From Eledone cirrhosa (lineage: Eukaryota), in NCBI GenBank assembly GCA_964016885.1, contig OZ024743.1, forward strand, positions 366,110,001-366,174,000: a DNA stretch of 64,000 nt, written 5' to 3'. Each line of letters starts with the position of its first letter. The first letter of the stretch is position 1. Below, piece by piece: positions 17,478 to 47,355 of the stretch. The position numbers and the translations under genes were made by a program. The notes beneath the pieces are model-generated. The model had not been told where the DNA came from. It did no database searches and was given only the letters and a program-made list of their open reading frames with translations.

Positions 17478-18674
17478 AATATAAGATCAAAAGATGGTTA
17501 AAGGAGTTCAATATATTTTATTATGCGCATTTCAAAAACAAACATCATCAAACAATAATATTTGTGTTTTCATCAGATAAAACAGGAGAACATGATATGA
17601 AGGCTAAAAAAACACTTGTTGATAGTGCAGTTTTGAATCAACATATGAAAAGTGGTTTTAGATTGATGTGTGATATTGGGAAAAATATTTTATTTAGAGA
17701 GGGGGGGGAGAGAAAAGGATGAAAAGGGAAGGAGATGAGAGGGAGAGATGGGTGATAGAGAGAAAGAGATAGTTTTATAACTGAGAGGAGATATATTTTA
17801 TATAGAGGGGTTGAAAACCGTTGGAAGATACTGTATAAATTAAAAATTTTGAAAATTAACGAAGGGAGGATATGTGCGAGGAAAAAATATATTATATTTA
17901 GGGAGGGGGGGGGGGGTTGGAAAGGATGAAAAAAAGGGGAGGAGATGAGAGTGAAGGTGGAAAGGGAGAGATGGGTGATAGAGAGAAAGAGATAGTTTTT
18001 ATAACTGAGAAAAAGATATAATGTTTTAATATAGAGAGGTTGGGAACCGTTGGAAGATAATGTATAAATTAAAGGAATTTGAAAATTAACGAAGGGAAAT
18101 TATGTATGAAGATAGAAAAAAATAATAATTGTGGGTGAATATTCTAACGTCAAAAGAAGAAATGTAGGAATTTTAAAATTAGCAAAGAGAAAAAGTTTGT
18201 GTAGAAGGATTTGAGAAAAATAATGTGAAGTTAAAGTTTGTATATTGAATTCATATGTATTAATAATGAGTTCGTTGATGGGGAGAAAAAAATAATAATA
18301 AATTAAGGATGAAATTGAGATTAAAAAGATTTATGATAGAGAGAAAAAATAATAATGATTGCGGATGAATACTCAAAATGTCAAAAACAAATGTTATTGT
18401 TTTACGAGGAGATAGAATGAGGGTAATGAGTAAACGAGTATTATAGAGTGTATAATGCCCTTTAAAGTAAGGTAGATGGGTATATTTTAAAGAATATATG
18501 AGTATATATTGTTTGATGATGTTTGTTTTTGAAATGAGCATAATAAAATATATTGAACTCCTTTAACCATCTTTTGAACTTATATTATGCATACTCCAGT
18601 CCCACAAACTGTAGAGTGCTTCTTATCCGATATCTGCATTGCTTTATTGTACTACAATAAAACTCACCTCCTAC
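17478..18674. mobile_element. PLE-type pLTR insertion: minus arm 17478-about 18505 joined to plus arm about 18506-18674
   Basis: 17478-17553 is the reverse complement of about 18510-18587 (2 substitutions); contains a hammerhead; imperfect ~210-bp direct duplication at about 17700-17880/17905-18110; no ORF recognised. Confidence 0.7.
17514..17584 (-). ncRNA. Type I hammerhead ribozyme (family H1)
   Basis: Minus strand: UGUUUUAU-CUGAUGA-aaaca CAAAUAUUAUU guuu GAUGAUGUUUG uuuuu-GAAA-UGCGCA-UA/AUAAAAUA; 8-bp stem I, long stem II, palindromic stem III. Confidence 0.88.
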
Positions 18675-19191
18675 ATATATATATATATATATATATGTGT
18701 GTGTATATATATATATATATATATATATATATATATATATATATATGTGTGTGTGTATATATATATATATATATATATATATATATGTGTGTGTATATAT
18801 ATATATATATATATATATATATGTGTGTGTATATATATATATATATATATATATATATGTGTGTGTATATATATATATATATATATATATATGTGTGTGT
18901 ATATATATATATATATATATATATATGTGTGTGTATATATATATATATATATATATATATATGTGTGTGTATATATATATATATATATATATATGTGTGT
19001 GTATATATATATATATATATATATATATATATATATATATATATATGTGTGTGTATATATATATATATATGTGTGTGTATATATATATATATATATATGT
19101 GTGTGTATATATATATATATATATATGTGTGTGTATATATATATATATATATATATATATATATATACACACATATATACATGTGTATATA
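18675..19191. repeat. (TA)n/(TG)n compound tract
   Basis: Directly visible. Confidence 0.95.
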
Positions 19192-19340
19192 TAAGGATTA
19201 AAATACTGGAGCGTGTTGGAGTTAAACACCCTCTTCGTATTATAGAAATGACAGTAAAAAGTATAGCTCAATGCAGTTAAACAGAGCCAAAAAATTAAGA
19301 GAGTAAAACAAAGAATCCTTTAATACATCAAAAGTTTTTA

Positions 19341-19385
19341 TTAGCCGACAATGTTTCGTCCTATTAAGGACTCATCAGGGCAATT
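19341..19385 (-). ncRNA. Minimal type I hammerhead ribozyme (family H2)
   Basis: Minus: AAUUGCC-CUGAUGA-GUCCU uaau AGGAC-GAAA-CAUUG-UC/GGCUAAU; perfect 5-bp stem II, GUC cleavage triplet, short stem I. Confidence 0.85.
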
Positions 19386-42846: not shown

Positions 42847-45380
42847 ATATATATTATGTGTGTATATATATATATGTGTATATATATATTATATGTGTAT
42901 ATATATATATATATATGTGTGTATATATATATATGTGTATATATATATGTGTGTTATATAGTATATATGTGTATATATATATATATATATGTGTATATAT
43001 ATATATATATGTGTGTATATATTATATATATATGTGTATATATATATATATATATATATGTGTATATATATATATGTATATATATATATATTATGTGTAT
43101 ATATATATATATGTATATATATATATATATATGTGTATATATATATATGTATAAATATATATATATATGTGTATATATATATATATATATGTGTATATAT
43201 ATGTGTATATATATATATATATAGTGTGTGTATATATATATATATATATATATATGTGTATATATATATATATGTGTATATATATATATATATATGTGTG
43301 TGTTGTATATATATATATGTGTATATATATATATATATGTGTATATATATATATATGTGTATATATATATATGTGTATATATATATGTGTATATATATAT
43401 ATATGTGTGTATATATATATATATATGTGTATATATATATATATGTGTATATATGTGTATATATATATATATATATATGTGTATATATATGTATATATAT
43501 ATGTGTACATATATGTGTATATATATGTATATATATATGTGTACATATATGTATATATATATGTGTGTATATATATATATGTGTGTATATATATATATAT
43601 ATGTGTATATATATATGTATATGTGTATATGTGTATATATATATGTGTATATGTGTATATATATATATGTGTATCTATATATATATATGTGTATATGTAT
43701 ATATATATATGTATATATATATATTATATATGTGTATATGTATATATGTATATATATATGTATATATATATATATGTGTATATGTATATATATATGTATA
43801 TATATATGTGTATATGTATATATATATGTATATATATATATATATGTATATATATATGTATATATATATATATATATATGTGTGTATATATATGTATATA
43901 TATATATATATGTGTGTATATATATGTATATATATATATATATGTGTATATGTGTGTATATATATGTATATATATATATGTGTATATATATATGTGTATA
44001 TATATGTATATATATATATATATGTGTATATATATATGTGTATATCTATGTATATATATATATATATATATGTGTATATATATGTATATATATATATATA
44101 TATATATGTATATATATATATGTGTATATATATATATATATATATGTATATATATATATGTGTATATATATATATATGTATATATATATATGTGTATATA
44201 TATATACATATATGTATATATATATATGTGTATATATATATGTATAATATATATATGTGTATATATATATGTGTATATATATATATATATATATGTATAT
44301 ATATATATGTGTATATATATATACATATATGTATATATATATATGTGTATATATATATGTATATATATATATGTGTATATATATATATATATATGTATAT
44401 ATATATATGTGTATATATGTATATATATATATGTGTATATATATATGTATATATATATATGTGTATATATATATGTATATATATATATGTGTATATATAT
44501 ATATATATATATATATGTATATATATATGTGTATATATATATATATGTGTGTATATAATATATATATGTGCGTATATATATGTATGTGTGTATATATGTA
44601 TGTGTATCTATATATGTATATATATATGTGTATATATACTTGTATATGTATATATGTGTATATATATATATGTGTATATATACTTGTATATGTGTATATG
44701 TATATGTATATATGTGTATATATATATGTGTATATATATATATGTATATGTATATAAGTATATGTATATATGTGTTATATATATATATATGTACATATAT
44801 GTATATATCTATGTATGTATATCTATGTATGTGTATATATATGTATGTGTATATATATATATATATATGTATATGTATATAAGTATATGTATATATGTGT
44901 ATATATATATATATGTACATATATGTATATATCTATGTATGTATATCTATGTATGTGTATATATACTGTATGTGTATATATATGTATGTATATATCTATG
45001 TATGTATGTATATATATATATGTACATATATGTATATATCTATGTATGTATATCTATGTATGTGTATATATATGTATGTGTATATATATGTATGTATATA
45101 TCTATGTATGTATGTATATATGTATGTGTATATATATGTATGTATATATCTATGTATGTATGTATATATATGTATGTATATATATATGTATGTATGTATA
45201 TGTATGTATATGTATGTGTATGTATGTATATGTCTGTATATATATATATGTCTGTATATGTATGTATATGTCTGTATATATATATATAGGTCTGTATATA
45301 TATATATGTCTGTATATGTATGTATATATATATATATGTATGTATGTATGCTATATGTATGTATATATATATATATGTAT

Positions 45381-45554
45381 GCTAGGGAAAGGATCAGGGG
45401 TGTATAACACTCCACTTATCCAGCAGGCAGTATGTAGGACAGAGCCGTAATATAATAAATAAATAACAAAGAACGCTTATAGCATATGCATATCTTTACT
45501 TGCTAACATTGTTTCATCCGCACTATAAGTGGGACTCATCAGAGCATAAAGGTT
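45381..45554 (-). mobile_element. 174-bp pLTR fragment of the H5 family
   Basis: Reverse complement of 33415-33600 with a ~20-bp internal deletion; TA tracts on both sides. Confidence 0.88.
45494..45551 (-). ncRNA. Hammerhead H5, third copy
   Basis: Identical to 30976-31033. Confidence 0.85.
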
Positions 45555-46418
45555 ATATATATATATGTATTGTATGTATATATATGTATGTATGTATATG
45601 TATGTATATATATATATATGTATGTATATATATATATGTCATGTATATATATATATGTATGTATGTATGTATAATGTATATATATGTATGTATATGTATG
45701 TATGTATATGTATATATATATATGTATGTATGTATGTATATATATATATATGTGTATATTATATATATATGTGTATATATATATGTGTATGTATATATAT
45801 GTGTATGTATATATATGTGTATGTATATATATGTGTATGTATATATATGTGTATGTATATATATGTGTATGTATATATATGTGTATGTATTATATATGTT
45901 CATGTATATATATATATGTGTATGTTTATATATGTGTATGTATATATATGTGTATGTATATATATGTGTATGTATATATGTGTGTGTATATATATATGTG
46001 TGTGTATGTATATATATGTGTGTATTATATATATGTGTGTATATATATATATGTGTGTATATATATATATATGTGTGTATATATATATGTGTATATATAT
46101 ATGTGTATATATATATATTATGTGTGTGTAATATATATATATGTGTGTATATATATATATGTGTGTATATATATATATGTGTGTATATATATATATATAT
46201 GTGTATATATATATATATATATATGTGTGTGTATATATATATGTGTGTGTATATATATATGTGTGTGTATATATATATATATATATGTGTATATATATAT
46301 ATGTGTATATACATGTGTATATACATATACGTGTATATACATATATGTGTATATATATATGTGTGTGTATATATATATTTGTATGTATATTTATGTATAT
46401 ATACATATATATATATAT
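45555..46418. repeat. (TA)n/(TG)n compound tract
   Basis: Directly visible. Confidence 0.95.
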
Positions 46419-47355
46419 GAATGAAAAATGGCGAGCTTGGTTGTTGCAAAAAGGATATATATAATAAATGAAGAATTAGAAATATCCGTCATCAGTGGTC
46501 TAGTAGCCATCATAGGTATTTCTCGCATTACAGACCATATACCCCCGGCTAGGGCGATACAATAACTAAATTAAGTTATTGGGATAAAAAGAGTTGGGTG
46601 GAGAAAGAGAGACAGGTAAATAAACACCAATGGTGAGGCAACGTAAAGAGAGGAAAAAATGAGAAAATCAAGTCAATAATCCATTTTGAACATAAGACCT
46701 TGCGACTATTGACGAGAAGGCAAAGACACATCTTGGCCGTGCGGATGTGAGCGAGGAAAGAATCTCGTACGGTGTGGGACGATGGAGGAAGTGAGAGAGA
46801 GGGTGAGTAGCAGAGAGTGAGTGAGTGAAAGTGTGAGGAAGAGGCTAGCCGAGAGAGGGTGACTAGCAGAGGGGGTGAGTGAAAGTAAGAGGGAGAAGGA
46901 GAGGGAAAGAGGATAGCAGTAAGGAAAGAGAAAAGAACAGGTCACAGCGAAGGGGAAAGCATATATGAATGAAAAATGGCGAGCTGTGTTGTTGCAAAAA
47001 GGATATATATAATAAATATAGAATTAGAAATAGAAGCCAGGAATATCCGTCATCAGTGGTCTACTAGCCATCGTAGGTATTTCTCGCATTACAGACCATA
47101 TACCTCCGGCTAGGGCGATTATTGACTTGATTTTCTCATTTTTTCCTCTCTTTACTTTGCCTCACCATTGGGGTTTGTTTACCTGTCTCTCTTTCTCCAC
47201 CCAACTCTTTTTAGCCCAATAACTTAATTTAGTTATTGTATCGCCCTAGCCGGGGGTATATGGTCTGTAATGCGAAGAAATACCTATGATGGCTAGTAGA
47301 CCACTGATGACGGATATTCCTGGCTTCTATTTCTAATTCTTCATTTATTATATAT
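46419..47355 (-). mobile_element. Non-coding element: 548-bp unit + partial second unit + inverted arm (47117-47355)
   Basis: GAAAAATGGCGAGC at 46423 and 46971; 47117-47355 is the reverse complement of about 46457-46681; GAT microhomology at the inversion junction. Strand inferred from architecture. Confidence 0.75.

What the first reader, a model, noticed from the sequence alone, without database searches (positions are those of the whole stretch)
17478..47355. Five insertions share a tail-outward inverted architecture, suggesting double priming from both target strands
Seen: 17478-18674, 19192-21774, 26498-28262, 30934-33604 and 46419-47355 each have two arms whose 3' ends face outward into TA tracts. 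One arm reaches the true 3' end (about 120-225 nt past the ribozyme). The other stops earlier at an internal AT-rich spot. Inner junctions show microhomology (AGAAATTT at 28142, GAT at 47117), and arms differ by substitutions. Known: inverted partial pLTRs occur in PLEs. Inference: arms duplicate the same sequence, and in two cases include about 0.85-1 kb upstream of the hammerhead, so simple L1-style twin priming on one RNA is insufficient. Two RNA templates, possibly dimerised through palindromic stem III, may each be primed by one TA strand.
Basis: partly seen in the sequence, partly recalled or inferred. Interest (0 to 1): 0.72.

Follow-up and report, generated by a model that had tools for sequence, protein, structure and literature searches.

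The report
Twin-primed Penelope retrotransposon insertions
These five mirror-armed inserts show a known layout of Penelope-like jumping genes, but across this genome the two arms almost always end at two different fixed sites and carry the same source variants, so they were likely made when both cut DNA strands each started a copy from one and the same RNA.

Summary
The architecture is real in four of five elements; E2's second arm is only 16 nt and ends off-site. It is the published Penelope-like element (PLE) layout: an inverted 5'-truncated copy plus a one-sided "tail", inserted in (TA)n. The elements belong to five families. The short arm does not stop at a chance AT-rich spot but at a fixed family site B, 35-102 nt before site A. 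Genome-wide, 84 of 88 inverted insertions with both ends on a family site are A+B, and 19 of 19 in a sample blind to both ends. In 20 of 84 the tail-less arm reaches further 5', which excludes simple fold-back. Priming from both strands is supported and matches published in vitro work. Two RNAs from different sources, paired through stem III, is not supported: arms of one insertion are closer than arms of different insertions (0.4-4.2% vs 1.2-7.0%), share lineage markers, and stop together more often than chance (18 vs 7). Families without a palindromic stem III show the same layout. Most likely one RNA is read twice; two transcripts of one locus are not excluded. The scan already noted this layout at other places in this genome.

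The parts
17478..18506 (-). E1 B-primed arm (tail-less, about 1 kb of 3' region plus hammerhead)
   Evidence: outer end at family site B
17516..17586 (-). E1 type I hammerhead, long stem II, palindromic stem III (ATGCGCAT); predicted cut 17522/17521
   Evidence: motif scan and fold; activity untested
18503..18674 (+). E1 A-primed arm (about 80 nt shared plus 86-nt tail)
19193..21760 (-). E2 A arm: 5'-truncated copy of a 4.8-kb RT+GIY-YIG PLE (end of ORF and long 3' region), with a nested repeat at 20370-20560
19341..19385 (-). E2 minimal type I hammerhead; predicted cut 19347/19346
21759..21774 (+). E2 16-nt inverted piece, starts 6 nt after the predicted cut, ends about 30 nt short of site B; TA microhomology
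26498..28143 (-). E3 A arm: 5'-truncated Neptune-type-looking PLE (RT motif YSRYVDD, CxxxCxxC linker, GIY-YIG, one in-frame stop), hammerhead and 58-nt tail
26718..26766 (-). E3 hammerhead, stem III AG-GA-CT (not palindromic); predicted cut 26725/26724
28142..28262 (+). E3 B arm (118 nt, entirely downstream of the ribozyme); AG microhomology
30936..31852 (-). E4 B arm (about 0.9 kb, includes hammerhead core at 31024)
31850..33604 (+). E4 A arm: 3' region of a 4.9-kb RT+GIY-YIG PLE, hammerhead core at 33427, 93-nt tail; CAC microhomology
46419..47119 (-). E5 A arm: 1.27 units of a non-coding 574-nt tandem unit, 35-nt tail
47117..47350 (+). E5 B arm (unit positions 300-539); GAT microhomology

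Best explanation
These are insertions of five Penelope-like element families into (TA)n tracts, each with one arm ending at a fixed site A and the inverted arm at a fixed site B one tail-length upstream (E2's 16-nt arm ends short of B), likely because the element's endonuclease cut both target strands and each free end primed reverse transcription, likely on the same uncleaved RNA. Shown: the layout, the fixed sites, the A+B rule, non-nested arms, shared source variants, excess co-terminal arms, and microhomology or short templated inserts at the junction. Inferred: the A-primed copy displaces the B-primed copy so that both cover the same RNA stretch; both stop by truncation or at the RNA 5' end; the two cDNA ends are joined head to head by microhomology-mediated end joining.
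For: A+B in 84 of 88 junctions with both ends on a family site (116 examined). Of the 3 A+A, two have mirrored flanks and one is the upstream copy of a tandem whose far end is out of view. A+B in 19 of 19 junctions in an E1 sample taken with a query upstream of both sites. The B arm reaches further 5' in 20 of 84 and the A arm in 46. Arm difference within versus between insertions: E1 2.2/7.0%, E2 0.66/2.9%, E3 2.1/3.5%, E4 0.37/1.17%, E5 4.2/6.1%; shared derived alleles are 4-7 times denser within. 152 of 201 shared alleles also occur in other insertions, so they are lineage markers. Co-terminal arms 18 of 84 versus a mean of 7.1; none of 5000 permutations reached 18. In the blind E1 sample all 19 B arms stop at reference 1404-1421, and most A arms at 1410-1451, so both sites were used on the 5'-most pLTR. 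Both arms cross the predicted ribozyme cut in 70 of 84. Microhomology of 2 nt or more in 34 of 44 insertion-free junctions versus 17% expected. PMC11167929: both strands cleaved and extended, two RT start sites that bound the tail, unprocessed RNA the main template, dimer predicted.
Against: Sequence cannot tell one molecule from two transcripts of one locus. 66 of 84 pairs are not co-terminal. E3-family pairs show 39 concordant and 30 discordant markers; most discordances sit at sites carried by my queries or in an 8-bp repeat, but I tested that bias only for one E1 site. The window's own E3 pair differs at 9 of 69 columns and shares no derived allele. PMC11167929 found no difference in start site between strands, so the A+B rule is not shown in vitro. 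Strand displacement by a PLE RT was not tested here. Early gene conversion between arms could add to their likeness. BLAST overlaps may overstate microhomology. Most queries contained the tail, so B+B was undersampled except. Independent read support for a window junction was not obtained.
Confidence: 0.55

Rival explanations
1. Two RNA molecules from the same source locus are held in an asymmetric protein dimer; one subunit primes at A, the other at B.
For: Gives overlapping arms without strand displacement; fits the shared lineage markers, the 66 of 84 non-co-terminal pairs and the predicted PAc dimer (PMC11167929).
Against: Needs a built-in asymmetry to avoid A+A and B+B, and the predicted dimer is described as symmetric head-to-tail. 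It does not explain the co-terminal excess beyond shared stop sites (18 vs 7.1).
Confidence: 0.22
2. One tandem (multi-unit) RNA is primed at A in unit n and at B in unit n-1, as in L1 twin priming; the arms look duplicated only because the units repeat.
For: Partial tandems are common (L247, L252, L258, L284, L285, L321; E5 family). Some A arms stop at about B of the previous unit (L258, L028, L122, L123, L126). PMC11167929 proposes multi-copy mRNA.
Against: In the blind E1 sample both arms stop near the same 5' point, so both lie on one pLTR. B arms reach 2.2-3.8 kb (L246, L287, L288, L300, L318, L325), longer than any upstream partial copy seen (longest about 2.0 kb). It would not give co-terminal arms. 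Stops at B(n-1) also fit plain TA microhomology.
Confidence: 0.12
3. One cDNA folds back on a palindrome and copies itself (self-priming, as proposed in PMC3846280).
For: Some junctions are palindromic (CATATG in L071, TCGA in L319) and short fold-back pieces occur at junctions (L275, L293, L303). It would explain co-terminal pairs and arm likeness.
Against: It requires one arm nested in the other; in 20 of 84 the tail-less arm is the longer one 5' while the other has the tail, including window E1. It does not explain a fixed stop at B.
Confidence: 0.05
4. One reading: two independent RNAs from different source copies pair through palindromic stem III, and each is primed by one TA strand.
For: Stem III is palindromic in E1 and nearly so in E2 and E4. 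A few pairs are as divergent as random pairs (window E3, L164, L287, L300).
Against: E2 23/0 and E4 14/0 concordant lineage markers, against 46/306 and 60/564 between insertions. The same layout occurs in E3 (no palindrome) and E5 (no complete core). An apparent arm-specific E1 variant vanished in a blind sample (0 of 19 A arms).
Confidence: 0.04
5. The inversions are fold-back read chimeras or assembly errors.
For: The nearby TA tract is noisy, holds a 200-N gap and inverted fragments of neighbouring elements. Two A+A cases do mirror their flanks.
Against: Identical family-specific end points at over 100 junctions on many contigs, non-nested arms, inserts at junctions and accumulated differences between arms.
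Confidence: 0.02

Closest known systems
EN+ Penelope-like element insertion unit: partial tandem pLTRs, adjacent inverted 5'-truncated copy, one-sided tail (PMC3846280; PMC8557442 Fig. 2)
   Same: Head-to-head inverted copy, shorter inverted pLTR, tail on one end only, ORF start inside the pLTR/tail, (TA)n target, hammerhead in the pLTR, palindromes at some junctions.
   Different: Tails here are 35-102 nt against the published 30-40 nt. Those papers explain the layout by self-priming or endonuclease resolution, not by two primings on RNA.
PAc (Poseidon, Anolis carolinensis) in vitro TPRT (PMC11167929)
   Same: Both strands cut and extended, two internal RT start sites that bound the tail, AT-rich target, uncleaved RNA as template.
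   Different: That paper reports no RNA-target homology and no strand bias in start site, and the word 'inverted' occurs once, for a blocking group. Here both sites abut TA-like bases in most families, and the sites are used one per arm.
L1 twin priming (described in PMC2912911)
   Same: Both target ends prime on one RNA; tail-outward inversion; cDNAs joined by microhomology.
   Different: L1's second site is an internal annealing site and, from recall, its arms barely overlap; here the site is fixed, close to the first, and arms overlap by up to 2 kb.
Non-LTR retrozymes / non-autonomous PLE derivatives (10.64898/2026.07.22.740005; MRC1 in PMC8557442)
   Same: E5 is a non-coding 574-nt unit in partial tandems with PLE-type ends.
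   Different: E5 shows no complete hammerhead core, so it fails the retrozyme definition.

Membership tests
EN+ Penelope-like elements | RT followed by C-terminal GIY-YIG endonuclease | tested here: met
   E2, E3 and E4 families: RT motif (YRDD, YVDD) and GIY-YIG motifs read in translations of real copies. Pfam GIY-YIG hits are weak and below cut-off (E 0.00083 for E2, 0.041 for E4, none for E3), so this rests on motifs by eye. E1 not tested; E5 is non-coding.
EN+ Penelope-like elements | Partial-tandem arrangement forming pLTRs | tested here: met
   Unit periods 4823 (E2), 4082 (E3), 4904 (E4), 574 (E5) in tandem copies.
EN+ Penelope-like elements | Adjacent inverted 5'-truncated copy | tested here: met
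   116 inverted junctions in E1-E4 families; 8 insertions in E5.
EN+ Penelope-like elements | Tail extension at one end only | tested here: met
   Tails 86, 102, 58, 93, 35 nt; A+B in 84 of 88.
EN+ Penelope-like elements | Type I hammerhead in the pLTR | tested here: met
   Cores in E1-E4; none complete in E5. Cleavage activity not testable here.
EN+ Penelope-like elements | Clade (Neptune vs Penelope/Poseidon) by RT phylogeny | not tested
   E3 has a Cys linker before GIY-YIG as described for Neptune; no tree was built.
L1-type twin priming | Second priming at a variable internal site, arms not duplicating each other | tested here: not met
   Site B is fixed and arms overlap. The non-overlap criterion is recalled, not read in a call.
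L1-type twin priming | Microhomology at the inversion junction | tested here: met
   34 of 44 insertion-free junctions have 2 nt or more versus 17% expected.
Non-LTR retrozyme (E5) | Complete hammerhead in each tandem unit | tested here: not met

The most novel reading that the evidence does not exclude
PLE integration is a programmed double priming: one uncleaved RNA is read twice at once, each cut target strand taking one of two fixed start sites, so the 'tail' and the inverted pLTR are two products of the same event and every inverted insertion is A+B by rule.
Probability: 0.45. Interest if true: 0.6.

Novelty: new member of a known kind. Interest (0 to 1): 0.33.

Why it matters
The layout is known, but how PLEs make their tandem/inverted ends and tail is named as an open task in PMC8557442. 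The A+B rule, the shared-template test and the co-terminal excess turn it into a simple experiment for the existing PAc in vitro system. It also matters for annotation: these palindromes are ordinary PLE stumps, not fold-back artefacts or separate elements.

Tried and rejected
Self-BLAST of the unmasked window timed out. The Rfam scan listed only microRNA-family hits on TA repeats among the 150 of 476 rows shown. An apparent A-arm-specific C-to-A change in E1 stem III (7 of 7 discordant pairs) vanished in a blind sample (0 of 19 A arms, 0 of 25 B arms): it came from the query. For the same reason, matches of the E3 short arm to other copies are not evidence of a second haplotype. A tail-only E1 search returned nothing. 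Pfam gave no RT hit. No RNA holder was listed. Contigs of runs X1-X4 laid on the E4 junction cover both sides, but no listed piece bridges it (29 of 38 pieces shown; two samples, possibly other individuals): no verdict. The E3 junction was not checked against reads. Tail-only A arms and stops at B of the previous unit fit a block at B but also plain TA microhomology, so I do not count them as support.
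Full report
Setting. The window is G000:C4:366110001-366174000 of a 3.0-Gb animal genome. The finding spans long (TA)n tracts that hold nested mobile elements.

Observation. Inverted, tail-outward arms are present in E1, E3, E4 and E5. In E2 the second arm is a 16-nt exact match (21759-21774) that starts 6 nt after the predicted ribozyme cut and ends about 30 nt before the site used by 11 other insertions of its family. 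It is probably real but atypical. Junction microhomologies read against family sequence are AG (E3, not AGAAATTT), CAC (E4), GAT (E5), TA (E2) and about AATA (E1). Type I hammerhead cores occur in E1-E4; E5 lacks a complete core. Only E4 has both arms reaching about 0.9 kb upstream of the ribozyme; in E1 only one arm does.

What they are. Tandem copies elsewhere in the genome give unit lengths of 4823 (E2), 4082 (E3), 4904 (E4) and 574 nt (E5). E2, E3 and E4 units encode RT followed by GIY-YIG by motif; Pfam support is weak. E3 has a cysteine linker like Neptune elements; no tree was built. In E3 the start codon lies just before the short-arm end and the frame runs through the tail into the next unit, as described for Pen2a (PMC3846280). 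So the long-arm end is an internal site, not the end of the RNA. E5 is non-coding. The E1 coding region was not sought.

Two fixed sites. In every family the arms end at one of two sites, A and B, 86, 102, 58, 93 and 35 nt apart. I gave all loci then held for E1-E4 except the window's own hits, plus the window copies (30, 50, 96 and 132 sequences, many overlapping). After removing repeats there were 116 inverted junctions: 84 A+B, 3 A+A, 1 B+B, 18 with one end elsewhere, 10 cut by the locus edge. Two A+A cases mirror their flanks and the third is part of a tandem whose far end is unseen. At least one 'elsewhere' case is A+B with an internal jump (L032). Window E2 is not in these counts (arm under 35 nt) and E5 was treated apart. 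Samples are top hits to window copies, mostly tail-containing. A query upstream of both sites gave 19 of 19 A+B in 29 loci; some of these share one junction and may not be independent.

Both arms were copied from RNA. The tail-less arm extends further 5' in 20 of 84, the tailed arm in 46, and 18 are co-terminal within 15 nt. Non-nested arms cannot come from one strand folding back. Both arms cross the predicted ribozyme cut in 70 of 84, and only 2 of 168 inner ends lie within 10 nt of it, so the template was uncleaved. Forty of 84 junctions carry inserted bases (27 of 5 nt or more, several copied from nearby); 34 of the 44 others overlap by 2 nt or more against 17% expected. This pattern fits end joining of two cDNA ends (inference).

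One template or two. Arms of one insertion differ less than arms of different insertions in all five families (E1 2.2/7.0%, E2 0.66/2.9%, E3 2.1/3.5%, E4 0.37/1.17%, E5 4.2/6.1%) and share derived alleles 4-7 times more densely. At lineage markers the concordant/discordant counts are E2 23/0, E4 14/0, E1 33/9, E3 39/30, against 46/306, 60/564, 85/572 and 337/2979 between insertions. Seven of E1's nine discordances are one site carried by my query, and it vanished in a blind sample. E3's discordances cluster at query-carried sites and an 8-bp repeat, but I did not retest them, and the window's E3 pair is divergent (9 of 69 columns), so two templates are not excluded for that copy. Co-terminal pairs exceed permutation (18 vs 7.1, 0 of 5000), and in E1 both arms pile up at the same 5' point. 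Together these favour one RNA read twice (0.55) over two transcripts of one locus (0.22), a tandem RNA primed in successive units (0.12), fold-back (0.05), two unrelated RNAs paired by stem III (0.04) and artefact (0.02).

Literature. PMC3846280: read parts 1-4 of 5; it describes the shorter inverted pLTR, the tail, junction palindromes and a self-priming hypothesis. PMC8557442: passages only; inverted 5'-truncated copy, tail at one end, (TA)n targets, mechanism named as open. PMC11167929: parts 1-2 of 4 and passages; its supplements (Figs S1, S2) were not opened and may bear on pairing of start sites. bioRxiv 10.64898/2026.07.22.740005: part 1 of 5. PMC2912911: passages. Searches listed no title or abstract stating an A+B rule or testing arm relatedness; the library lacks most subscription papers, so this is not proof of absence. 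Low overlap of L1 arms is recalled.

Verdict. A real, known PLE insertion layout, seen before by this scan at other places in this genome.

Noticed in passing
window 13184-16610 (+) and 22088-22242: Near-complete APE+RT LINE with frameshifts, ending in GAT repeats, inserted in TA; a 3' fragment of a relative at 22088 (RTE-type label is recalled).
   Followed up: no
window 22568-23793 (+), 34075-34140 (-), 36812-37281 (-): 3' part of another LINE; near-identical inverted pieces of its end recur inside the noisy TA tract near the 200-N gap at about 42647-42846. May be assembly noise.
   Followed up: no
window 45382-45553 (-): Sixth PLE piece: E4-family 3' end with hammerhead core at 45542, TA on both sides.
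   Followed up: partly
window 28728-30391: 310-bp tandem repeat, 5.4 copies, 99% alike, inside TA; no hammerhead core found.
   Followed up: no
window 47356-47742: Short element with terminal inverted repeats (TACGAGGG...CCCTCGTA) directly after E5's B end; looks like a mariner-type MITE (label recalled).
   Followed up: no
window 20370-20560: Dispersed repeat of about 190 nt nested in E2, with copies at 1994, 49579, 51316, 53958 and 59471.
   Followed up: no
window 17637-17654; E1-family loci L342-L370: Inner ends of E1-family arms pile up at a CATATG palindrome, a likely RNA 5' end or strong stop. The E3 family has a similar pile-up near window 26815-26839.
   Followed up: partly
L319, L152: Perfect A+A palindromes whose flanks are mirrored too: true fold-back duplications or assembly artefacts, distinct from A+B insertions.
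   Followed up: partly
L301, L333, L256, L265: Inversions with an internal second segment and a non-TA flank, closer to L1-type twin priming.
   Followed up: partly
window 54428-59104: 29-bp satellite, 162 copies.
   Followed up: no
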